A DNA stretch of 64,000 nt, from contig OZ257136.1 in the NCBI GenBank assembly GCA_965278995.1, forward strand, positions 2,874,497 through 2,938,496, given 5' to 3'. Every line of letters begins with the position of its first letter. The stretch's first letter is position 1. The notes under the pieces were generated by a model. That model saw only the letters and a program-made list of their open reading frames with translations. It was not told where the DNA came from and ran no database searches. Of this stretch, positions 45,821-61,826 are shown in pieces. The DNA comes from Gammaproteobacteria bacterium (GTDB lineage: Bacteria; Pseudomonadota; Gammaproteobacteria; Ga0077536). The position numbers and the translations under genes are program-made.

Positions 45821-45899
45821 GGTGAAAAACTACTGCGCTCGGCATGACGGCATTGCACGAGCGCGCCTTGTCCTGCCTTCGCTCGCTACGTTTTTCACC
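45821..45899. repeat. MITE/REP-like palindromic element, copy C (GGTGAAAAACTAC ... TACGTTTTTCACC), directly abutting the terminal attC of the cassette array
   Basis: Its reverse complement is ~85% identical to copy B, and the core CCTTGTCCTGCC is shared with copy A. Confidence 0.6.
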
Positions 45900-45902
45900 A
45901 GC

Positions 45903-45972
45903 CTGCTAACGCGTCGAAGAGCGGCGTTGGAGCGCGCAGCGCGGAAGCGGCCGCTCGATTGGCGGGTTAAGT
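45903..45972. other. Integron attC site 1. It is the most diverged member of the attC family, with an inverse core TAAC and a core GTTAAG.
   Basis: It runs from GCCTGCTAAC to CCGCTCGATTGGCGGGTTAAG and is aligned to four other copies. Confidence 0.6.
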
Positions 45973-46612
45973 GCCGCGGTCTGCCAAACTAAGTGCAACA
46001 CCCTCATCGATCGCGGGTGGAGAACCGGCGTTACTGTCGGCTTCCTCGTCCGCCAAGACGGGGTTGTAAACATGACATACCACCAGCTCTCCGATAATGA
46101 ACAATACGTCATCGGCAGGCTTTGCCGCCAGCGGCGCAGCCTACGCTAAATCGCCTTTGCAGCGGGCCGTGCATCATCAGCCGCATACTCAAGCGGAACG
46201 CCACCCAGCACGACGGCCACTACCGGCCTGAAAAGGCCCACCAATATGCTGTCGCCAGGCGTCGTCGCAGCCGCCGTAATCGACACCATGGTCCATGTGA
46301 CTGGAAGCCCCATGGCCCGCGCGCTGCCCAGCCAATCGCGGCAGATTGCTCGGCAAGCGCCATATCAGCGAGCGTTCTAAACGCGTCGAGCGCGTGACCG
46401 GCTTCCTCGTCATCAAAAAGCGCAAAGCCCGCACCATGGCGCAAGCGGCCCGCGCCCTCACTCGCGCTATCCCACAACTCGATGCACGCTTCACGACCGT
46501 CACGCTCGACAACTTGACAACCGACCGCGCGAGCGGCTCGGATTTAAAACACCCGCCGAAGTATTCTTCGGCCCGTCCTAACGGTGCTGCACTTCAAAGT
46601 GGAATTCAAGCC

Positions 46613-46819
46613 TCAGTGCGAGGCCAGTTCTTCACGGACAATTTTGCGCACCAATTCTGGGGAGAGAACCTCTTCGCCCGAGCTGACGTGCGCTTTAAGT
46701 GCCTCGTTGATCAATGTCTGGTAGCCCTTACCAGACTTCTCCGACCGCAGTTTGAACTGTTGGAGAATTTCGTCATCAAGATAAATTGTGATACGAGTCT
46801 TTCCAAGCGGCGAGATCAC
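46613..46819 (-). CDS. BrnA-like ribbon-helix-helix antitoxin (COG3514 type) in a gene cassette
   Basis: It is a small protein (KGYQTLINEALKAHV) encoded downstream of a BrnT-like toxin, in the toxin-first order typical of BrnTA. Confidence 0.55.
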   Translation of the reverse strand: MISPLGKTRITIYLDDEILQQFKLRSEKSGKGYQTLINEALKAHVSSGEEVLSPELVRKIVREELASH

Positions 46820-46889
46820 TGCACCACGCTTGGCCTTCGAAAAGTCATATTCCTTTTTTTTAGTTCCGTCGCTCTTTCGGCTCGGCCAT

Positions 46890-47117
46890 TCAAACGGAGA
46901 TCAATCTGATATTTGCGCCACGGGGCGCCCATTTCACGACCATTAACGAATTAAAGAAGTTCATTCCTAAACTAACGAAACGCCGCTCGCCTTCGACGAA
47001 GGCGTCTTCCATTGTCAGGGCGTGGGGATCAATTAACACTCCGTCTCGTTTCGCGAGAGAAACCCCATGCTTCTGACGATTCGCTTCGTCCTTGGTCGGG
47101 TCATACTCGACGCTCAT
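46890..47117 (-). CDS. BrnT-like (DUF497/COG2929) ribonuclease toxin in a gene cassette
   Basis: MSVEYDPTKDEANRQKHGVSL...ERRFVSLG matches the BrnT family pattern. The start is internal to a longer ORF in the track. Confidence 0.55.
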   Translation of the reverse strand: MSVEYDPTKDEANRQKHGVSLAKRDGVLIDPHALTMEDAFVEGERRFVSLGMNFFNSLMVVKWAPRGANIRLISV

Positions 47118-47175
47118 TGAGTATGCACATTGTGCATATGGCGGAACAGAGGAGACGTTGAGAGGGTCAGTCTGA

Positions 47176-47244
47176 GGCCTAACGCGCCGATGATTGGCGG
47201 AGGAGTGCGCAGCACGAAGGCGTCCGCTCCATGGCTGGTTAGCC
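47176..47244. other. Integron attC site 2 (GGCCTAAC ... CGTCCGCTCCATGGCTGGTTAGC)
   Basis: It belongs to the same ~68-bp family as attC sites 3-5, with an imperfect internal dyad and unpaired bases. Confidence 0.7.
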
Positions 47245-47248
47245 ATCG

Positions 47249-48034
47249 CTACGGGAGTAGACCCAGGGATTGCAGACATGACCGACTGAGCTTCTCTCGC
47301 GTTGGACCCATTTCTGCATTCTTCATGTCCATGTTCAGGGCGAAGGGATAATTTATCCCACCGGAATTTACCCACCCGACCCACCAGCCGACACCTTCGT
47401 TCGGATAGTTCTGCCACCCAGACTTCGCCCAAAGGCCCCAGCCTTTGCCCTTGTCTTTGAGAAGGATTTCCTGGGTTTGAGTTTGCACCGTTTCGCTCAC
47501 CGGGAGACGATGAGCTACAAGCTTCGCAATGAAGCTGACCTGTTCGATTGCGCTGATCTGCAGTGGACCATCTAACCAGAATCGGTCTACTGCTTGGCCA
47601 ATCGTTTTATTCCCATAGTCGAAATACTCTAGCGCTTCGGCCATCCGGTTCAATCCGATTCGTCGGGCAAGCGTTTGGTATATCGCTACATTGGATAACA
47701 CGATTGCTTCGCGGAGGCTCATGTTCCGCTCCCATTCCTTGACTGGTTGCGGTTGCCCTCCGTATTCGAGAACCTCGTCAACGTCTTTGACGGCACCTAC
47801 GGTGAGTCCTATAAGCGTATTCGCGATCTTGAAGGTCGAGGCTGGGACGAACTGAGTGGTTGCGCGCTCTTGGTTGTAGCCAGTCATCTCTCCGGTTCGT
47901 GGGTCGAGGACAACAAAGGTGCCTGCTACGTTCGCTAGCCGAAACTGCTCGGCGAGATCGAGGTTCTCGGTCCACTGCGCCAAACACCGCAGCGGCACCA
48001 AGACCAACAAGAGAGCGGAAAGTGCTCTAATCAT
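47249..48034 (-). CDS. Class D (OXA-type) beta-lactamase gene cassette
   Basis: Motifs present: STFK, YGN, a KSG element, WWVGW and the omega-loop element QISAIEQVSF. A signal peptide is present. The stop lies 5 bp from attC site 2, and the start is 12 bp from the split attC site 3. Confidence 0.8.
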   Translation of the reverse strand: MIRALSALLLVLVPLRCLAQWTENLDLAEQFRLANVAGTFVVLDPRTGEMTGYNQERATTQFVPASTFKIANTLIGLTVGAVKDVDEVLEYGGQPQPVKEWERNMSLREAIVLSNVAIYQTLARRIGLNRMAEALEYFDYGNKTIGQAVDRFWLDGPLQISAIEQVSFIAKLVAHRLPVSETVQTQTQEILLKDKGKGWGLWAKSGWQNYPNEGVGWWVGWVNSGGINYPFALNMDMKNAEMGPTREKLSRSCLQSLGLLP

Positions 48035-48045
48035 TTTGATTGCGA

Positions 48046-48104
48046 TGCTTAACGTGCCGATGAGCGGCGTTGGAGTGCGAAGCACGGAAACGTCCGCTCG
48101 ATTG
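48046..48104. other. Integron attC site 3, left portion, interrupted by the IS insertion
   Basis: GCTTAACGTGCCGATGAGCGGCGTTGGAGTGCGAAGCACGGAAACGTCCGCTCGATTG matches the family, then diverges abruptly at about 48105. Confidence 0.65.
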
Positions 48105-49483
48105 ATGAAATGGACTCCTCCCGCACTTTTTGCGCCGGCATCAGTGTGCCAAAGTAGGGTTGTAACACGTCTACTTGCTCAGCTCAGGAGGAGTCCACCC
48201 ATGAAGTCTAAGATTATTGCTGTCGACCTGGCAAAGGATGTCTTCGAAGTCGCCGTCGCCGATCTCGATCACCACATCGTCGAGCGTCAGCGCTTGTCGC
48301 GCACGGCCTTCAGTCGCTTCATCTCGACACAACCGGCCGCGTTGGTGCTGGTCGAGTCGTGCGGCACCGCCCACTACTGGGCACGCCATGCCCAGGCCGC
48401 CGGACATCAGACCAAAATTATCCCGGCCCACTATGTCAAACCGTATCGCCGTCGCGGCAAGACCGACCGCGCTGACACCGAAGCCCTGCTTGAAGCCCAC
48501 CGTTGCCAAGGCATCAAGCCGGTCCCGCTGCGCTCCGTCGAGCAACAACAAATTCAACAACTCCACCGGGTGCGTGAGCAATGGAAGCGCACGCGCACCC
48601 AGCGTCTCAACGGACTGCGTGGGTTCTTACGTGAACTCGGCTTGGTTATTCCCGAAGGCGCCAAGCTCGCGCAACGGCGAGCTCATGCGTTCCTCAACGA
48701 CGACGCCATTCCGCCGCCCTTGAAGAGTGTCTTCACGCGCCTGCTCGAAGAAATCAAAACCCTCGAGAGCGACATCGCCGCCGTCGAACGACAGCTCAAG
48801 GCCCTGACCCAAGCCAATGCCGGCGTACAACGGTTACAGACCGTCGCCGGTGTCGGTCTGTTGACCAGTACCGCCATGGTCGCCGCCGCTGGCTCACCGC
48901 ATCATTTCCCCGACGGGCGTCATTTTGCCAGTTGGCTTGGCCTGACCCCACGCGAGTACAGCTCTGGTAATCAGCCGGTCCTCGGGCGGATCTCCAAGCA
49001 GGGCGACTGGGATCTGCGCATGCTGCTCACCCATGGCGCGCGCTCAGTGCTCACCAGGGCCAAGCAACTGCAACGCGTCGGAAAGACCCTGACCCGTCTG
49101 CAACAATGGGCCTGCACGCTCGAACGGCGGGTCGGTCATAACAAGGCGACCTGCGCCATCGCCAACAAGCTCGCTCGGATCTGTTGGGCCGTATGGAAAT
49201 CTGAAACCGACTTCGACGCTAACCGCGCCGCCGCTTAACCCCTCAACCCGTTTGCGTAGAGACTATCGCGTTCATGACATTTTGGTTGGACCAGTACCGA
49301 TGAAAGCCGATAACCAGCTTGCTCAGCCAAGAGCATTTCGATCGATTGGCACTCGGTGCGCGGATCTTCATGATGGCCCGGCCTCGACCAACGAGAGCCA
49401 CAGCGAGGCCGGATACACGACTGCAAACGACACCAACCGTCAGCAACGCACCTTCGTCTCTACTTGTGGGAGGAGTCCATACA
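48105..49483 (+). mobile_element. IS110-family insertion sequence of the attC-targeting IS1111 group (about 1.38 kb), inserted in attC site 3
   Basis: It carries a DEDD transposase ORF. Subterminal repeats CTACTTG-N-GGAGGAGTCCA lie near both ends (48171-48200 and 49457-49480). The flanks reconstitute an attC site. Confidence 0.65.
48201..49238 (+). CDS. IS110-family (DEDD) transposase
   Basis: The N-terminus MKSKIIAVDLAKDVFEVAV is present. The C-terminal Transposase_20-like region has VAGVGLLTSTAMVAAAG. An AGGAGG ribosome-binding site is present. Confidence 0.85.
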   Translation: MKSKIIAVDLAKDVFEVAVADLDHHIVERQRLSRTAFSRFISTQPAALVLVESCGTAHYWARHAQAAGHQTKIIPAHYVKPYRRRGKTDRADTEALLEAHRCQGIKPVPLRSVEQQQIQQLHRVREQWKRTRTQRLNGLRGFLRELGLVIPEGAKLAQRRAHAFLNDDAIPPPLKSVFTRLLEEIKTLESDIAAVERQLKALTQANAGVQRLQTVAGVGLLTSTAMVAAAGSPHHFPDGRHFASWLGLTPREYSSGNQPVLGRISKQGDWDLRMLLTHGARSVLTRAKQLQRVGKTLTRLQQWACTLERRVGHNKATCAIANKLARICWAVWKSETDFDANRAAA

Positions 49484-49510
49484 GGCTGGTTAGGCATCGC
49501 GTAGGTTAGC
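49484..49510. other. Integron attC site 3, right portion (GGCTGGTTAGG, with a second GTTAGCC copy)
   Basis: It matches the 3-prime ends of the other attC copies immediately after the IS right end. Confidence 0.5.
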
Positions 49511-49955
49511 CCCGGCGTACGGCCAAGAACGCCCCGGCCGACATTAAAACCAGGCCGACAAGTCTTTGTAAAGATAGCGTGTGCACCTGTGCGCCCAGTA
49601 GCCCAAATTGGTCTATGGCGGCCATTGAGATGAGCTGTCCGAGCAGGACAAATGCCACAGCATTGCCGACACCGAATTGTGGAGCTACCCAGGTAACGCT
49701 TAAAACGTAGAAGGCGACGAAGACACCCCCTAAATAGAAATAGAACGGGATTGATGCTTTGGGCGAAAGTCTCAGGCCACCTCCTACGGTGAACAGGAAA
49801 GCGAGCGAAACGCATAATGCCACCAGAAACAATACGGAGGCGGCGAAAGACGGGCTACCGTACGTAGAACCTAATTTGGAACTAAGCGCGGCCATAACAG
49901 GAATGCCTATACCCGTAGTAACCATAAGACAAGCAAAGAATAGTTGGTTTGCCAT
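49506..49955 (-). CDS. Small DMT-superfamily (EamA/DUF606-like) membrane protein cassette
   Basis: It is 149 aa with 4-5 transmembrane helices. Its stop lies within the attC core. Confidence 0.55.
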   Translation of the reverse strand: MANQLFFACLMVTTGIGIPVMAALSSKLGSTYGSPSFAASVLFLVALCVSLAFLFTVGGGLRLSPKASIPFYFYLGGVFVAFYVLSVTWVAPQFGVGNAVAFVLLGQLISMAAIDQFGLLGAQVHTLSLQRLVGLVLMSAGAFLAVRRG

Positions 49956-50080
49956 AGGTCGAACTCATCTAGTTATTCAAGGTGTAGGACGACAAGTTGA
50001 GGCGCGCGGACATTCAATGCAGCTCTTTGTAAATCTACTCGCGCCTTGAGAATGCGGCAACACCAACTATGCAGCGCGAT

Positions 50081-50150
50081 GCCTCAACGCGCCGATGAGC
50101 GGCGTTGGAGCGCGAAGCACGGAGGCGTCCGCTCGATTGGCTGGTTAGCT
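50081..50150. other. Integron attC site 4 (GCCTCAACGCGCCGATGAGCGGCGTTGGAGCGCGAAGCACGGAGGCGTCCGCTCGATTGGCTGGTTAGC)
   Basis: Family alignment. Confidence 0.7.
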
Positions 50151-50474
50151 GTCACTTCGTATTGCAACTTCGATATAGCTGCCGTTCGTGGCCGACGCAA
50201 TTGCGTCAACTACTGAGGCGATGGACGTTTGGATCCGCGGCCAGCTTGTCGTAGTTAACACGACGATCGAGATTTGGCGGGTATCGAGGTTCTGCTGGTA
50301 CTTCAGGTTCTGGTCTGTTGTTACCAACACATCGAATCCGTTCGCTTCGGCTTGACTCAAAAGGTCGCCATTCTGCAGAGAACCCCAGCCTCGCTCATAG
50401 GCCGTTTCAATTTCATGGGAACCGAGGTGCTTGCGAAGAGGAACTGGTGTTCCCTGATCAAACAGGATCCGCAC
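50145..50474 (-). CDS. DUF5615-type PIN-like putative toxin
   Basis: MRILFDQGTPVPL...DVLVTTDQNL matches the family. It is coupled to an upstream DUF433 partner. Confidence 0.5.
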   Translation of the reverse strand: MRILFDQGTPVPLRKHLGSHEIETAYERGWGSLQNGDLLSQAEANGFDVLVTTDQNLKYQQNLDTRQISIVVLTTTSWPRIQTSIASVVDAIASATNGSYIEVAIRSDS

Positions 50475-50693
50475 TCACGCGACTTCCAGGGATCGAGCTG
50501 CGTGTTCAAGGACTTTTCGAGCTTGGTCTAGGGTAACTCCGGGAAACCACTCCAGAAATTCTGAGATCTGGGCGCCGTCCTCAAGGTTTTCGAATAGCGC
50601 AGATACCGGAACCCGTGTGCCCCGAAACACCCACGCGCCGCTCACCATGTCTGGATCGCGATGGACAGCAGCGCATGTGGACCAATCAATCAT
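50475..50693 (-). CDS. DUF433 (COG2442) putative antitoxin
   Basis: GAWVFRGTRVPVSALFENLEDG is the DUF433 signature. Its stop overlaps the DUF5615 start. Confidence 0.5.
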   Translation of the reverse strand: MIDWSTCAAVHRDPDMVSGAWVFRGTRVPVSALFENLEDGAQISEFLEWFPGVTLDQARKVLEHAARSLEVA

Positions 50694-50733
50694 GAGTTGA
50701 TGCTACGCCAGGTCTGCACGGGGTTCAACGTGA

Positions 50734-50803
50734 CAGCTAACGTGCCGATGAGCGGCCTTGGAGCGCGAAGCGCGGAAACGTCCGCTCGATTGGCTGGTTA
50801 GAG
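50734..50803. other. Integron attC site 5 (AGCTAACGTGCCGATGAGCGGCCTTGGAGCGCGAAGCGCGGAAACGTCCGCTCGATTGGCTGGTTAGAG)
   Basis: Family alignment. The BrnA-like gene stop lies in its core. Confidence 0.7.
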
Positions 50804-51076
50804 CGAGGCTTCTTTGAACGCACGAAGCACCGCATTGATGCGAGTCTGATAGCCTGGACCTTGAGATCTAAACCACTCAAGAACATCCGCGTCTACGCGC
50901 AGCGCGATTGATGCCTTTGGCGGGATTGGCTTTAGACCCCTGCGGACTATACCGCCGACGATATGCTTGACCTTCGCCTCGGGATGCTCAGGAGATAGCT
51001 TAATGTCGCGGCCGCTTTGCGCACGTACCCGCGCCCAATCAGTTTTGGAGGTTTTCGAAGAGGATGCTTTCTTCAT
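50798..51076 (-). CDS. BrnA-like antitoxin, second copy
   Basis: GPGYQTRINAVLRAFKEA is present. It overlaps the upstream BrnT-like gene. Confidence 0.5.
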   Translation of the reverse strand: MKKASSSKTSKTDWARVRAQSGRDIKLSPEHPEAKVKHIVGGIVRRGLKPIPPKASIALRVDADVLEWFRSQGPGYQTRINAVLRAFKEASL

Positions 51077-51314
51077 TTCGGGTAGCCTTACGGGATGAGA
51101 TGACGTGGATTTCGGTTGAAGTCTCGGTATGAATTATTGATGTTGTTACCCCACCGAGGAAGCCAAGCGTTACAAAACGCTGCTCTCGGTACACAAAGCG
51201 ATTATCTTCGAAGGTAAACGTTGGCCCTTCAAAAACCCGCGGGGTGTCAACGAAATCAAAGCCATGTTCTTTAAGGTTAGTGCGGCGCTTTGGTTCGTCC
51301 CATGTGAATCGCAT
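51039..51314 (-). CDS. BrnT-like (DUF497) toxin, second copy
   Basis: MRFTWDEPKRRTNLKEHGFDF...QRFVTLG is present. Confidence 0.55.
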   Translation of the reverse strand: MRFTWDEPKRRTNLKEHGFDFVDTPRVFEGPTFTFEDNRFVYREQRFVTLGFLGGVTTSIIHTETSTEIHVISSRKATRNEESILFENLQN

Positions 51315-51365
51315 GCATCTAATGTATATACACTATGTAGATTCGTCAATCCACGACTGCGCCTC

Positions 51366-51452
51366 GCTCTAACATTCAGTAGCCATCATCCCAACCTTAT
51401 TACGCTCGTCAATCTGACGTTGAATTCCAGGTCGGAGTTAAGGCTACAGTCG
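51366..51452. other. Possible degenerate sixth attC site (CTCTAAC ... GGAGTTAAGG)
   Basis: It has an inverse-core-like TAAC and a core-like GTTAAG about 80 bp apart, with short internal inverted repeats. The call is weak. Confidence 0.25.
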
Positions 51453-52020
51453 AGTGCGAATCGGTGCGAGTGAGATGTTCAATTTTTACATCAGCAATTT
51501 GTAGTATGAGGTTGCCAGCGCCGCCAGTCATTGGCGGGAGTAGAACGCGATGATATACGTCAAACTGAAGTGATCGAAGCTACGTCCGGCCTTGCTGGAG
51601 CGCAGGTTGGCGTTCGTTGCCCGGCACGATTGTGATCGCGTATCCGGTGAATGGTTCGGAGCTACCAGGAGCTGGCTTTTTGGTTGCCTTCTATCGATCG
51701 TGTGGGTTCGGCTGTCCGAGTGCGTTAGTACCGCATTCGCACGGAGCGGGCTTACCTGTATTGGAACTGCGGCCGCGACTACGAACACCAGGAGGTGCCG
51801 CTTTACGGCATTTCAATGGCAGTGAACAGCGCCAGTACTATTATCCATATGACAGCACTGACCAGGAGGGGAGTTCTTCCGACACCCACCGCCATGCGCC
51901 ATTACTGCCGCACTGATGATCAGGAATATCGTTACGGCGAATAGAAACTTGATCACACTGTGATTGAGGATATGGTCGTGCAGGGTACGCAGAATCAAGC
52001 GTTGTATGCGCCGCACTATC

Positions 52021-59876: not shown

Positions 59877-61826
59877 TCAGTCGCTCGTCTTCAACGTCGT
59901 CGACTTGGCAACGCCATCGGTTGGCGAACCGCCGATGATGAGGTCAATCTTGCGCGCGCCGCCACCTATCGGCGTGCTAGCGGCGACGCTTGCAACCTGC
60001 GCTGCCGTCAGCGTGTGACCACTGCTGTCGACGACATTGCCGGCGGCATCGACTTTCAGTCCGGCCGAGGCGAGCTGTGCTTCACTCAGTACACCGTTCT
60101 TGGTCATGACCAGCGTTGCCGGGTTGACCACATTGCCGGCTTCGTCGACGACTTCACCATTGGCGTTCAAGGTCAAGCCCGCCGCCGCGAGCTGCTCCGC
60201 GTTGATCACTTTGCCGCTGGCATCGGTGACCAGAGTGGTGGGGTCGACGACCTTACCGCTGGCATCGACCAGTTCGCCTTTTTCGTTCATCGTCAGCCCG
60301 GCAGCCGCCAGCTGCGCGGGTGTCAGCAGTTCTCCGTTGGCAGTGACGACCAGCTTGTCGGGGTCGACGACATTGCCGGCTGCATCGACTATCTCGCCCT
60401 TGTCGTTGACGGTGAGGCCCGCTGCAGCGAGCTGTTCAGCCGTCAACAATCGGCCGTCGGCCGTCTTGATGAGCTTCGCCGTGTCGATGACCCTGCCGCT
60501 GGCATCGACGACTTCGCCGCGTTCGTTCACGCTCAATCCCGCCGCAGCCAGTTGCTGGCGAGTGACGATGTCGCCGTTTGCCGTCACGATGACATCTTCG
60601 GCCGAGACGATGTTGCCGTCCTTGTCGACGATTTGTCCGCTGGCATTGACGGTAAGGCCGGCTTTGGCCAGTTGTGCGCGATCGAGCACGCGACCATCGG
60701 CGGCGATGACGAGATTGGCCGGGTCGACAACCTTGCCATCCTTGTCGACAAGTTGCCCTTTGTCGTTGACCGTGAGGCCGGCTTTGGCCAGCTGCTCGCG
60801 GCTCATGATGCGATTGCCGTCGGCGTCGACGAGATTGCCGGCCTGGTCGACGCCGCTCGCAACGGCGACCCGGGTGCGGCGTTCGCCCTCGGCCTGGGCC
60901 ATGGTGAACGCATTACTGAAAAGATCCTGCGCAGACAGCGTCGAAAAGTCAGACAAGCCTTCGTCATTGCGATTGCGCAATAGTGCCAGCAAGTCGCCTT
61001 TGTCGAGTGCTGCGGTAACGAGTGCAGCCTCGCGCGGGCTGACGTCGAGTGTGATGGTGTTGTAGTTGCGTTCGGCACGCGGCTGCGGATAGTTCAGCGC
61101 ATCGAGTTCCTCGCGGTAAGGGTCACGCCCGGTGGCCAGCACACGCACACTCTGAAGCACCGGCAGAATGACATCCTTCGGCAGGGCATTCGCGACGAGC
61201 TGCTGGATCTCGGTATCGCCGGTATTGGCCCCGCGCGCCGCATCGAGCAGTGCACGTGGAATGGCATCACGTAGCTGGCTCGGGATCGCATCGACGAGAT
61301 CGGCGGTGATGAAGCCGGCCGAGAAGCCGGAGAAACCTGAGGGAATATTGACGAACAGATCGATGCGATTGCCGGGACGAATGAAGCCGGCGACGGAATT
61401 GATGTCATCGACCTGGACTGTCATCGCGCGTCGCCCGACCGGCACCGTATCGGAGAAATCGACCGGGAACCCGGTATCGAGATAGCTCTTCAGTATCGGT
61501 TTGCCCGCGCTGACATCAGCCTCGATGACCCGGCCGAGGTACTTTTCGAAATCGCCGGCAGGAACTGCATCGTTGGAGACGAATCCAGCCGGGATCTTGC
61601 GCTGAGACAGGACTTCGCGGCGCAACACGCTGCCTTTCGGGAGGTCGGTGCCGGCAACCAGTACGGTGACCTGCTTGCGGTCGGCACCGGCATATTTTTC
61701 GATCAACGCCGCTTTTTCGCTCTTCAAATAGACATACGAGAGCGCGGCCGCAACCAGCCCGAAAACGATAGCGCCAATCAGTAGCGGAATACCCAGTACG
61801 CTGCTGTTGTCTCGCGGCTCGGCCAT
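59877..61826 (-). CDS. cpaB: CpaB/RcpC-like pilus assembly protein (SAF domain) fused to about seven C-terminal ~40-aa tandem repeats
   Basis: The N-terminus has a transmembrane helix plus a CpaB-like region (RKQVTVLVAGTDLPKGSVL). The C-terminus has repeats of the form AEQLAAAGLTVNDKGEIVDAAGNVVDPDKLVVTANGELLT. Confidence 0.75.
   Translation of the reverse strand: MAEPRDNSSVLGIPLLIGAIVFGLVAAALSYVYLKSEKAALIEKYAGADRKQVTVLVAGTDLPKGSVLRREVLSQRKIPAGFVSNDAVPAGDFEKYLGRVIEADVSAGKPILKSYLDTGFPVDFSDTVPVGRRAMTVQVDDINSVAGFIRPGNRIDLFVNIPSGFSGFSAGFITADLVDAIPSQLRDAIPRALLDAARGANTGDTEIQQLVANALPKDVILPVLQSVRVLATGRDPYREELDALNYPQPRAERNYNTITLDVSPREAALVTAALDKGDLLALLRNRNDEGLSDFSTLSAQDLFSNAFTMAQAEGERRTRVAVASGVDQAGNLVDADGNRIMSREQLAKAGLTVNDKGQLVDKDGKVVDPANLVIAADGRVLDRAQLAKAGLTVNASGQIVDKDGNIVSAEDVIVTANGDIVTRQQLAAAGLSVNERGEVVDASGRVIDTAKLIKTADGRLLTAEQLAAAGLTVNDKGEIVDAAGNVVDPDKLVVTANGELLTPAQLAAAGLTMNEKGELVDASGKVVDPTTLVTDASGKVINAEQLAAAGLTLNANGEVVDEAGNVVNPATLVMTKNGVLSEAQLASAGLKVDAAGNVVDSSGHTLTAAQVASVAASTPIGGGARKIDLIIGGSPTDGVAKSTTLKTSD
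59990..60850. repeat. Imperfect 120-bp tandem repeat (about 7 units) inside the cpaB-like gene
   Basis: The motifs GGGTCGACGAC and GCCGCCAGCTG recur with a 120-bp period (e.g. 60121, 60241, 60361, 60481, 60601, 60721). Confidence 0.7.

What the first reader, a model, noticed from the sequence alone, without database searches (positions are those of the whole stretch)
48046..49510. An attC-targeting IS110-family (IS1111-group) element inserted inside an attC site
attC site 3 matches the family for about 59 bp, then diverges at 48105. The attC 3-prime end (GGCTGGTTAGG) resumes at 49484. The ~1.38-kb interval between them encodes a DEDD transposase on the plus strand, opposite to the cassettes. 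Near each end there is a direct subterminal repeat CTACTTG-N-GGAGGAGTCCA. This matches site-specific insertion of IS1111-attC-type elements into attC, and it could drive expression or immobilise the neighbouring OXA cassette.
Basis: partly seen in the sequence, partly recalled or inferred. Interest (0 to 1): 0.65.

Follow-up and report, generated by a model that had tools for sequence, protein, structure and literature searches.

The report
New attC-targeting IS1111 insertion sequence
A 1.38-kb jumping gene of a known kind (IS1111-attC), carrying its own guide RNA that matches the site, sits inside one integron recombination site just upstream of an OXA beta-lactamase cassette; it is a new, uncatalogued member of the group but works in an already described way.

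Summary
Window 48103-49483 (left end ±1 nt) is an intact IS1111-family insertion sequence lying inside attC site 3.

- **Excision test:** removing it in silico restores an attC that aligns with its four siblings and folds as a hairpin.
- **Anatomy:** it has a 345-aa DEDD transposase, perfect 13-bp subterminal inverted repeats, 7/3-nt terminal extensions and no target duplication. A 245-nt 3' non-coding region follows the gene.
- **Guide RNA:** that region encodes a two-loop bridge/seekRNA (49294-49424). Its loop sequences match the attC flanks and the element's own ends. Across 27 relatives these guides covary with flanks and ends (0/10,000 permutations for each of four relations).
- **Placement:** the transposase falls in the IS1111 clade, sister to ISKpn4/ISPst6/ISPa62 at 46-50% identity. 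Those elements occupy the same attC position in the same antisense orientation.
- **Novelty:** it is a new member of a known kind.

Splitting attC3 should fuse the YdcZ-like and OXA cassettes into one unit. That is an inference, and no integrase is present in the window. The idea that the element drives OXA expression rests only on a weak promoter-like match; a similar putative promoter was reported inactive in ISPst6.

The parts
48103..49483 (+). Complete IS1111-attC-type insertion sequence, 1381 bp (1380 bp if the left end is 48104)
   Evidence: attC breakpoints. Terminal architecture matches 57 related copies. Boundary rule taken from ISPa62 in the aadA1 attC and from PMC11187229.
48103..48109 (+). 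Left terminal extension TGATGAA (7 nt). Within it, TGAAAT at 48106-48111 is the inferred -10 box, preceded by an extended -10 TG, of the promoter formed in the circular junction.
   Evidence: The T-G-A/C-T-N-N-N pattern is conserved in relatives. It is complementary to the donor-loop guide UUCAUGA. Spacing is computed.
48110..48122 (+). Left subterminal inverted repeat ATGGACTCCTCCC
   Evidence: (I1); conserved in relatives
48171..48197 (+). Internal direct copy of the right-end motif (CTACTTG...GGAGGAGTCCA). GGAGGAGTCCA at 48187-48197 overlaps the ribosome-binding site 3 nt before the ATG and can pair with the left IR.
   Evidence: I13, D17; conserved upstream of the start codon in nearly all relatives; hairpin, -37 kcal/mol, z = -2.3
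48201..49238 (+). DEDD transposase/recombinase gene, 345 aa, intact. D9, E52, D89, D92 and S255-G256 fall in invariant or nearly invariant columns.
48205..48234 (-). Outward-facing promoter-like match TTGCCA-18-TAGACT, reading toward the OXA gene. Function doubtful.
   Evidence: literature caveat
49239..49483 (+). 3' non-coding region, 245 nt (the 5' non-coding region is 98 nt)
   Evidence: all relatives have 3' NCRs of roughly 220-350 nt
49294..49424 (+). Predicted bridge/seekRNA core, 131 nt. Helices: P1 49294-49300/49353-49359; P2 49306-49308/49348-49350; P3 49360-49362/49422-49424; P4 49375-49378/49407-49410.
   Evidence: Alignment A2, RNAalifold, pair counts (90.8% of cells paired, 85 compensatory cells against 15-30 in slid controls), single-sequence fold.
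49311..49319 (+). Target-loop 5' guide UAACCAGCU, complementary to the right attC flank GGCTGGTTA (8/9)
   Evidence: I22; 90/125 matches against 58.7 expected; 0/10,000 permutations
49338..49342 (+). Target-loop 3' guide UCGAU, same sense as the left attC flank ...CTCGAT. An alternative register at 49342-49350 (UCGAUUGGC) matches 9/9 across the junction under the 6+3 boundary model.
   Evidence: 81/105 against 44.1 expected; 0/10,000
49367..49373 (+). Donor-loop 5' guide UUCAUGA, complementary to the left-end extension TGATGAA (6/7)
   Evidence: 111/147 against 89.0 expected; 0/10,000
49413..49417 (+). Donor-loop 3' guide AUACA, identical to the last 5 nt of the right end
   Evidence: 38/40 against 28.9 expected; 0/10,000. 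ATACA, ATATA, ATATG, AGATA, ATAGA and ATACG mostly track the right end across relatives.
49464..49469 (+). TTGTGG, the inferred -35 box of the circle-junction promoter. Many relatives carry TTGAC at this position (a perfect TTGACA in several).
   Evidence: 17-nt spacer to TGAAAT once the ends are abutted
49468..49480 (+). Right subterminal inverted repeat GGGAGGAGTCCAT
49481..49483 (+). Right terminal extension ACA (3 nt)
48042..48102 (-). attC3, R'-L'-loop-L'' portion. The R' core GTTAAGC is the reverse complement of 48047-48053. This attC belongs to the YdcZ-like cassette.
49484..49500 (-). attC3, R'' (1L) portion. The R'' core GCCTAAC is the reverse complement of 49489-49495. The IS lies 5 nt from it.
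   Evidence: (I2)
47249..48034 (-). Class D (OXA-type) beta-lactamase gene of the next cassette downstream, 261 aa, with STFK and KSG motifs
49506..49955 (-). YdcZ/DMT-family membrane protein gene whose attC is interrupted

Best explanation
An intact, previously uncatalogued IS of the IS1111 family (IS1111-attC type) has inserted site-specifically into attC3. It lies 5 nt from the R'' (1L) core, with its transposase gene antisense to the cassettes.

Target choice is RNA-guided. The 3' non-coding region encodes a two-domain bridge/seekRNA.
- **Target loop:** it pairs with both strands of the attC. UAACCAGCU pairs with the top strand of the right flank. UCGAU pairs with the bottom strand of the left flank.
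- **Donor loop:** it pairs with the element's own abutted ends. UUCAUGA pairs with the left end, and AUACA with the right end.

By analogy with ISEc11, ISKpn4 and IS621, the element excises as a circle. Abutting the ends creates a promoter (TTGTGG-17-TGAAAT with an extended -10 TG). That promoter expresses the DEDD recombinase and, from the same transcript, the RNA. The ribonucleoprotein then recombines the circle junction with a matching attC, without a target duplication.

- **Shown here:** the anatomy, the reconstituted attC, the clade placement, the RNA structure covariation and the guide-target and guide-end covariation.
- **Inferred:** RNA expression, the circle, the activity of this particular copy, and the consequence for the integron. 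That consequence is that attC3 can no longer fold, so the YdcZ-like and OXA cassettes are locked together as one unit.
For: - **Protein family:** Pfam and NCBIfam hits.
- **Ends:** perfect 13-bp sTIRs and a three-copy motif found only in this element.
- **Excision:** removal restores an attC that aligns with its siblings and folds at -27 to -28 kcal/mol.
- **Tree:** the NJ tree places the transposase in the IS1111 clade, sister to ISKpn4/ISPa62.
- **Nearest named relatives:** ISPa62 and an ISKpn4-group element sit in class 1 integron attCs. They lie antisense to the cassettes and carry the same NCR modules.
- **Relatives in genomes:** among the 57 related copies the sTIRs are conserved, and most of the non-Terriglobia copies lie next to N5-7-GTTAG.
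- **Relatives in metagenomes:** 14 of 16 right junctions read N5-7-GTTAG; the other two read GTTGGG and GTTTAGG.
- **RNA structure:** 90.8% of cells paired and 85 compensatory cells, against 15-30 in slid controls.
- **Guides:** all four guide relations beat 10,000 permutations.
- **Literature:** the architecture and the guide order (top-strand complement 5' of the bottom-strand match) match published seekRNA and bridge RNA descriptions.
Against: - No expression data exist, and no circle junction or empty site was found (metagenome search for the empty site: 0 hits).
- This exact transposase is on record only once, on one contig, so its activity is unproven.
- The left boundary is ambiguous by 1 nt. 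The 7+3 model requires attC3 to have had GAT|GG, as attC2 does. The 6+3 model fits the GATT|GG of attC4 and attC5.
- The target guide has one mismatch at the base next to the junction.
- No shared donor/target 'core' of the IS621 type could be identified.
- Permutation tests do not remove phylogenetic non-independence.
- The NJ tree has no bootstrap support values.
Confidence: 0.9

Rival explanations
1. The element is an immobile relic. It arrived by the mechanism above but this copy no longer moves, so it is only a scar that fuses two cassettes.
For: This exact transposase is recorded once, on one contig. No circle junction or second identical copy was found. A near relative in another genome (L002) is visibly decayed: its start codon is ACG, it has an insertion of about 90 bp in the donor loop, and its 3' end is lost.
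Against: The ORF is intact and every conserved catalytic position is present. The 13-bp IRs are perfect. All RNA helices and all four guides are intact and match their partners.
Confidence: 0.25
2. The IS supplies an outward promoter that transcribes the OXA cassette.
For: A promoter-like site, TTGCCA-18-TAGACT, lies on the - strand at 48234-48205 and points at the OXA start 170 bp away. The scan found 2 sites in the region against 0.2 expected. The fixed antisense orientation of this IS group means any such promoter always faces the downstream cassette.
Against: The match is only 9/12. The -35 hexamer lies on the strand opposite the conserved DLAK codons, so its presence may only reflect coding constraint. 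A putative Pout was proposed for ISPa21 and ISPst6, but activity was not reported for the former and was negative for the latter (PMC3001079). The 1.38-kb insert also separates OXA from any upstream cassette promoter.
Confidence: 0.15
3. The attC is recognised by the protein reading the folded hairpin or its sequence, and the RNA complementarity is incidental (the pre-2024 view).
For: The attC is a structured site, and the conserved GAUAAC in the RNA matches the conserved GTTA of all attC cores. Part of the match could therefore reflect shared ancestry rather than function.
Against: The variable 5 nt next to GAUAAC track the variable flank bases across relatives (L005 9/9, L018 9/9, L022 10/10). 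A sister subgroup with a non-attC target carries a matching different guide: CAACGTCCG against the flank CGGACGTTG. Experiments on ISKpn4, ISPst6 and ISEc11 show that the NCR RNA is required, and reprogramming was demonstrated for ISEc11 (PMC11187229).
Confidence: 0.04
4. An IS110-group (not IS1111-group) element, or a different attC-invading element such as a group IIC-attC intron, landed here.
For: Generic family models only say 'IS110 family'. Group IIC-attC introns also insert near the 5' end of attC in antisense orientation.
Against: There is no reverse transcriptase or intron RNA, and Rfam returns nothing. The long NCR is downstream of the gene, the sTIRs are 13 bp, and the extensions are 7/3. 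Identity to IS110, IS621 and Piv is only 19-25%.
Confidence: 0.01

Closest known systems
ISKpn4 / ISPst6 / ISPa21 / ISPa62 / ISPpu24 group (IS1111-attC; Tetu & Holmes 2008; Post & Hall 2009; seekRNA shown for ISKpn4 and ISPst6 in PMC11187229)
   Same: - Size (about 1.4 kb), DEDD transposase and sTIRs built on the same GGAGTCCAT core.
- 7/3-nt terminal extensions and no target duplication.
- Insertion 5-6 nt from the attC R'' core, antisense to the cassettes.
- The same two-module RNA in the 3' NCR: GCCGAUAAC-guide...CG(A/C)UUGGC and GCGCG(G/A)A..guide..AUGGCC...GGCCGGAUA(C/U)ACGA.
   Different: - The transposase is only 46-50% identical, and there is no DNA match above 66% in PLSDB.
- The guide variable bases and end extensions differ: TGATGAA/ACA here against TGCTGTA/ATA.
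- It lies in an integrase-less chromosomal attC array, not in a clinical class 1 integron.
- Its close relatives (60-82% identity) are known only from metagenomes and MAGs.
ISPa25 / ISPa111 (diverged attC-targeting IS1111 members)
   Same: They show a similar level of divergence (about 47% identity) and belong to the same larger clade in the NJ tree. ISPa25 is reported to target the same attC position using a similar seekRNA.
   Different: They form a separate branch. The NCR of ISPa25 was not available here for direct comparison.
IS621 bridge RNA system (IS110 group; PMC11208160, PMC11208158)
   Same: A DEDD recombinase works with one non-coding RNA that has separate target-binding and donor-binding internal loops. 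Each loop reads both DNA strands. A circular intermediate carries a junction promoter.
   Different: In IS621 the RNA is in the 5' (left) end, the STIRs are only 2-3 bp, and donor and target share a CT core. Here the RNA is 3' of the gene, the sTIRs are 13 bp, and no shared core could be identified.
Group IIC-attC introns
   Same: They invade attC sites near the 5' end and in antisense orientation.
   Different: They are retroelements with a reverse transcriptase and a ribozyme, and their outward promoters are documented. None of these features is present here.

Membership tests
IS1111 family (within ISfinder 'IS110') | DEDD (RuvC-like) transposase related over its full length to the IS1111 transposase | tested here: met
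   Pfam PF01548 and PF02371; NCBIfam NF033542 at 296 bits. Identity to IS1111A is 35% over 336 aligned columns, against 19-25% to IS110, IS621 and Piv. It falls in the IS1111 clade of the NJ tree. The DEDD and SG positions are conserved.
IS1111 family (within ISfinder 'IS110') | Subterminal inverted repeats of sufficient length (11-13 bp; range 7-17) | tested here: met
   48110-48122 against 49468-49480 is 13/13, or 15/16 over 16 bp. The repeats are conserved in 57 relatives.
IS1111 family (within ISfinder 'IS110') | Asymmetric terminal extensions beyond the IRs: 7 (occasionally 6) nt on the left and 3 nt on the right | tested here: met
   TGATGAA (or GATGAA) on the left and ACA on the right. 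The rule comes from PMC11187229. The same layout is seen for ISPa62 in the aadA1 attC (the uninterrupted aadA1 attC sequence used there is recalled from memory).
IS1111 family (within ISfinder 'IS110') | The longer non-coding region lies downstream of tnp | tested here: met
   The 3' NCR is 245 nt and the 5' NCR is 98 nt.
IS1111 family (within ISfinder 'IS110') | No target-site duplication | tested here: met
   The flanks ...CTCGAT(T) and GGCTGG... share no repeat, and joining them restores the attC.
IS1111 family (within ISfinder 'IS110') | Circular intermediate with a promoter assembled at the RE-LE junction | not testable with these tools
   The sequence is compatible: TTGTGG-17-TGAAAT with TGn once the ends are abutted, and a TTGNNN -35 is conserved in relatives. 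The circle itself cannot be observed from sequence.
IS1111-attC group | Insertion at a fixed position near the R''/1L (5') end of an attC site | tested here: met
   The IS lies 5 nt from the R'' core GCCTAAC. ISPa62 lies 6 nt from it in the aadA1 attC. Relatives sit at 5-6 nt, and 14 of 16 metagenome junctions lie next to N5-7-GTTAG.
IS1111-attC group | Single orientation, with tnp antisense to cassette transcription | tested here: met
   tnp is on the + strand and the cassette genes are on the - strand. The same holds in L081 and L082.
IS1111-attC group | Transposase is monophyletic with ISPst6, ISPa21 and ISKpn4 | tested here: inconclusive
   The NJ tree places it as sister to the ISKpn4/ISPa62 group, with ISPa25/ISPa111 as the next branch. 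There is no bootstrap and only 16 taxa, and at 46-50% identity it lies outside the published >70% group.
Bridge RNA / seekRNA-guided recombinases | The NCR RNA has internal loops complementary to both strands of the target. In IS1111 types the top-strand complement lies 5' of the bottom-strand match. | tested here: met
   UAACCAGCU (49311-49319) is followed by UCGAU (49338-49342). Both covary with the flanks across relatives. The order matches PMC11187229.
Bridge RNA / seekRNA-guided recombinases | A second loop is complementary to the donor (the element's ends) | tested here: met
   UUCAUGA pairs with the left end and AUACA with the right end. Both covary across relatives.
Bridge RNA / seekRNA-guided recombinases | Conserved RNA secondary structure | tested here: met
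   Five helices with 90.8% of cells paired. 14 of 21 pairs show changes on both sides, and the covariation score is 0.442 against at most 0.124 in slid controls. No Rfam family matched this region at gathering or at E ≤ 10.
Bridge RNA / seekRNA-guided recombinases | Core nucleotides shared by donor and target at the crossover (IS621-type) | tested here: inconclusive
   No T, AT or TT core model reproduces both observed junctions (reasoned).
Bridge RNA / seekRNA-guided recombinases | The RNA is expressed, binds the recombinase and is required for transposition | not testable with these tools
   This has been shown experimentally only for ISEc11, ISPa11, ISKpn4, ISPst6, ISEc21 and IS621.

The most novel reading that the evidence does not exclude
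This element could represent an uncatalogued, environmentally widespread sub-lineage of IS1111-attC. Its relatives (60-82% identity) are seen only in metagenomes and MAGs.

Its conserved two-loop RNA scaffold appears to have been retargeted in nature, from attC sites to an unrelated repeat in Terriglobia genomes, where more than 20 loci from a single assembly were recovered.

The conserved third IR copy over the ribosome-binding site could be a regulatory hairpin. It would keep the transposase untranslated on read-through transcripts and allow translation only from the circle-junction promoter. I did not find that regulatory device described for IS1111 elements in the papers I could read.
Probability: 0.3. 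Interest if true: 0.45.

Novelty: new member of a known kind. Interest (0 to 1): 0.3.

Why it matters
- **Annotation:** the 1.38-kb interval should be labelled as a mobile element with a guide RNA, not as a cassette. attC3 should be treated as one split site. The YdcZ-like and OXA cassettes then count as a fused unit, which matters for judging how mobile this novel class D beta-lactamase gene is.
- **The family:** the element adds a diverged natural example, with about 60 relatives. Guide-target and guide-donor pairing can be read directly from covariation in these sequences. This is useful raw material for people mining bridge/seekRNA recombinases, but it opens no new question.

Tried and rejected
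- **Rfam:** gathering thresholds on the whole window and E ≤ 10 on 48000-49600 gave nothing relevant.
- **Source genome:** look-up of the contigs encoding P0001 and P0027 found nothing on record.
- **Empty site:** a metagenome search for the exact uninterrupted attC3 (CCGCTCGAT-N0-1-GGCTGGTTAGGCATCGC) gave 0 hits. The 1-nt left-boundary ambiguity therefore remains.
- **PLSDB DNA search:** it found only a 303-bp, 66% match. There is no close catalogued copy.
- **Shared core:** T, AT and TT models of a donor/target core were tried and rejected, because none reproduces both junctions.
- **Register error:** my first donor-guide test was off by one column and gave a null result. It was corrected.
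- **Tetu & Holmes 2008 (PMC2447020):** the paper is not held. The group definition was taken from secondary citations.
- **Integrase:** Pfam scans of the ORFs beside the array, and a tblastn with IntI1 recalled from memory, found no integrase in the window. The only trace is an E = 0.34 hit at 51693-51764.
Full report
**Observation**

The + strand between 45.9 and 50.8 kb carries five copies of a 63-nt attC-like repeat, at 45908, 47181, 48051, 50086 and 50739 (family D2). Copy 3 follows the family consensus ...AACGTCCGCTCGAT(T) and then departs from it. The missing end of the consensus, GGCTGGTTAGG, reappears at 49484.

The interval contains a single long + strand ORF, 48201-49238 (345 aa). 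It matches Pfam DEDD_Tnp_IS110 and Transposase_20. It also matches the NCBIfam model 'IS110 family RNA-guided transposase' at 296 bits against a cut-off of 140. The flanking cassette genes are on the - strand:
- a class D beta-lactamase at 47249-48034, with STFK and KSG motifs;
- a YdcZ/DMT-family membrane protein at 49506-49955.

The motif ATGGACTCCTCC (up to 1 mismatch) occurs exactly three times in the 64-kb window, all within this element, against 0.2 expected. This gives perfect 13-bp subterminal inverted repeats (I1).

- **Excision.** Deleting 48103-49483 (or 48104-49483) in silico joins the flanks into a sequence that aligns column for column with attC1, 2, 4 and 5. It folds, with DNA parameters, into one long imperfect hairpin at -27.1 or -28.4 kcal/mol. 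There is no target duplication.
- **Clade.** I compared the transposase with ISfinder proteins taken from the supplement of Siddiquee et al. 2024 and with two integron-borne relatives fetched from PLSDB. It is 46-48% identical to ISKpn4, ISPa62, ISPa25 and ISPa111, and 34-40% identical to IS1111A, ISEc11 and ISPa11. It is only 19-25% identical to IS110, IS621, IS1000A, ISKpn42 and Piv. A neighbour-joining tree places it inside the IS1111 clade as sister to the ISKpn4/ISPa62 group. A tblastn search of PLSDB gives the same nearest named relatives, ISPa62 and ISPpu24, at about 50%.

**Anatomy compared with the family definition**

Siddiquee et al. (PMC11187229) define IS1111 elements by five features: sTIRs of 11-13 bp, terminal extensions of 7 (sometimes 6) nt on the left and 3 nt on the right, a long NCR downstream of tnp, no target duplication, and an NCR-derived seekRNA. 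This element has:
- 13-bp sTIRs;
- the left extension TGATGAA (or GATGAA) and the right extension ACA;
- a 245-nt 3' NCR against 98 nt upstream of the gene;
- no duplication.

The left boundary is uncertain by 1 nt.
- **For the 7+3 model (IS 48103-49483, 1381 bp).** The T before GAT is present in all 57 intact related copies regardless of target. It pairs with the A of the donor-loop guide. In ISPa62 inserted in the aadA1 attC, that T belongs to the IS; the uninterrupted aadA1 attC used for that comparison is from my memory.
- **What this model requires.** attC3 must have had GAT|GGCTGG, with a single T as in attC2.
- **The alternative.** If attC3 had GATT as in attC4 and attC5, the element has a 6+3 layout and starts at 48104.
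- **Empty site.** An exact-match search of metagenomes for the uninterrupted site found nothing.

**Relatives**

The exact protein is on record once, on a 5.7-Mb contig. A 70%-identical paralogue lies on the same contig. Dozens of proteins at 60-82% identity come from short metagenome contigs.

A scan of GTDB species genomes returned 80 loci. In 57 copies I could delimit the element by its conserved sTIRs, TGGACTCC.../...GGAGTCCA. Most non-Terriglobia copies lie directly next to N5-7-GTTAG(G/A), which is the R'' side of an attC.

A metagenome scan for the right end ACTTGYGGGAGGAGTCCATACA found 16 junctions. Fourteen of them read N5-7-GTTAG; the other two read GTTGGG and GTTTAGG. One (L096) has the same GGCTGGTTAGG flank at the same 5-nt distance as the window.

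The two nearest named relatives in PLSDB are ISPa62 in p1160-VIM and an ISKpn4-group element in a K. pneumoniae IncN plasmid. They sit in the attC sites of the aadA1 and smr cassettes of class 1 integrons. Both are antisense to the cassettes and lie at the same position relative to R''. This agrees with the published description of the group, 'near the 5'-end of attC and into the antisense strand' (PMC3001079).

**The guide RNA**

An alignment of the last 250 nt of 27 distinct relatives (A2) shows two conserved modules.
- **Module 1:** AAAGCCGAUAAC-[5 variable nt]-hairpin-[5-6 variable nt]-CGAUUGGC.
- **Module 2:** GCGCGGAU-[5 variable nt]-GAUGGCC-hairpin-GGCCGGAU-[variable nt]-CGACUGCA.

RNAalifold predicts closing helices around each module. 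For my five-helix model, 90.8% of cells are paired, against 25-42% when partners are slid. There are 85 doubly changed cells against 15-30 in the slid controls, and the covariation score is 0.442 against at most 0.124. The window sequence alone folds the same way at -46.1 kcal/mol, z = -2.6.

The variable stretches behave as guides.
- **Target loop, 5' side.** It is the reverse complement of the right flank: window UAACCAGCU against GGCTGGTTA, 8/9; L005 9/9; L018 9/9; L022 10/10.
- **Target loop, 3' side.** It repeats the left flank up to the base before the conserved T (window UCGAU).
- **Donor loop, 5' side.** It is the reverse complement of the left-end extension (window UUCAUGA against TGATGAA, 6/7). 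L008 TCCAT, L067 TACAG and L005 TTCAA each match their own left end.
- **Donor loop, 3' side.** It repeats the last 5 nt of the right end. ATACA, ATATA, ATATG, AGATA, ATAGA and ATACG track the right end in 38 of 40 positions.

In permutation tests over distinct pairs, none of 10,000 shuffles reached the observed match count for any of the four relations. These tests do not correct for shared ancestry. The signal nevertheless spans lineages whose transposases are only 45-55% identical to the window's.

The order of the guides, top-strand complement first and bottom-strand match second, is the one reported for IS1111-type seekRNAs. The two-loop target/donor logic is that of bridge RNAs, which Durrant et al. 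predicted in the right end of 93% of IS1111 elements. ISPa62 and the ISKpn4-group element carry the same modules, and their guides fit their own flanks and ends.

**Expression logic (inferred)**

When the ends are abutted as in a circular intermediate, TTGTGG (49464-49469) lies 17 nt upstream of TGAAAT (48106-48111), and the spacer ends in TGA, an extended -10. Relatives keep TTGNNN at this position, many with TTGAC and several with a perfect TTGACA. They also keep a T-N-N-(A/G)-A-T hexamer across the left extension and IR boundary. This fits the junction promoter shown for ISEc11.

It is conserved in nearly all relatives and doubles as the Shine-Dalgarno sequence. In the window it can form an 11-bp helix with the left IR (I13, -37 kcal/mol, z = -2.3). 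A plausible role is to mask the ribosome-binding site on read-through transcripts. I could not test this.

**Consequences for the integron**

attC3 belongs to the YdcZ-like cassette, and its R' end abuts the OXA cassette. The insertion separates R'' from L''-L'-R', so the folded bottom-strand substrate cannot form. From established integron biology, OXA could then be excised only together with the YdcZ-like gene and the IS, through attC4 x attC2. This is an inference.

No integrase gene lies in the window. The only trace is an E = 0.34 tblastn hit to the IntI1 N-terminus at 51693-51764, at the position and on the strand where intI would be expected.

The suggestion that the IS drives OXA expression rests on a 9/12 promoter-like site at 48234-48205 on the - strand. 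Its -35 hexamer lies on the strand opposite the conserved DLAK codons. A putative Pout proposed for ISPa21 and ISPst6 was either not assayed or found negative.

**Verdict**

The element is a new, apparently intact member of the IS1111-attC type, diverged by about 50% from every named relative I could compare. Its close relatives are known only from environmental assemblies. Its predicted mechanism matches that already demonstrated for ISKpn4, ISPst6 and ISEc11 and for IS621-type bridge recombinases. Interest is modest.

Noticed in passing
window 45896-51400: The five-attC array has no integron integrase next to it or anywhere else in the window, so it looks like a CALIN or decayed chromosomal integron. 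The only trace is a weak tblastn hit (E = 0.34, 37.5% over 24 aa) to the IntI1 N-terminus at 51693-51764 (+), where a divergent intI would be expected. GC content of the array is 48-57%, against 60-65% in the flanks.
   Followed up: partly
window 47249-48034 (-): The cassette-borne class D beta-lactamase reaches the generic bla_class_D_main model (269 bits against a cut-off of 250). It falls far below every named OXA family cut-off; the best are OXA-50-var and OXA-50-like at about 250 bits against cut-offs of 580-600. It therefore appears to be a novel OXA lineage.
   Followed up: partly
window 46890-47160, 50145-50693, 50798-51314 (-): Several cassettes carry toxin-antitoxin modules: a BrnT/BrnA pair, a further BrnT-toxin ORF, and a DUF433/DUF5615 pair. 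This is typical of chromosomal cassette arrays.
   Followed up: partly
loci L023-L071 (Terriglobia MAGs, e.g. OZ253536.1, CBDCKF010000002.1): A sister subgroup (about 49% identical transposase, same sTIR core) occurs at many loci per genome (more than 20 from one assembly) and is not in attC sites. The flanks read ...cttGATGAGA...GATA|CGGACGTTGAGAATTG, and the RNA carries the matching guide CAACGTCCG. This looks like natural retargeting of the same scaffold to a different genomic repeat.
   Followed up: partly
locus L002 3001-4330 (CALOBG010000085.1, about 4.4 kb from L001 on the same contig): This is a decayed copy of the nearest relative (78% identity). Its start codon is ACG, the T before GAT is replaced by A, and an insertion of about 90 bp interrupts the donor-loop 5' guide. 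The right end is missing. Two elements of this lineage therefore occupy one contig of a Gammaproteobacteria MAG.
   Followed up: partly
window 49346-49374 (+): A sigma-70-like match, TTGGCA-17-CATGAT (9/12), lies inside the bridge RNA and spans the end of the target module and the start of the donor module. It may be a by-product of conserved RNA sequence, or an internal promoter.
   Followed up: no
protein P0027 (not in the window): A 70%-identical IS1111-type transposase is recorded on the same 5.7-Mb contig as the window's transposase. The genome therefore holds at least two related elements.
   Followed up: no
window 60027-60860: Tandem 120-bp periodic repeats (5-7 copies, 60-94% identity) lie inside a long ORF on the - strand (59877-61826). 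This is probably a repeat-domain protein.
   Followed up: no
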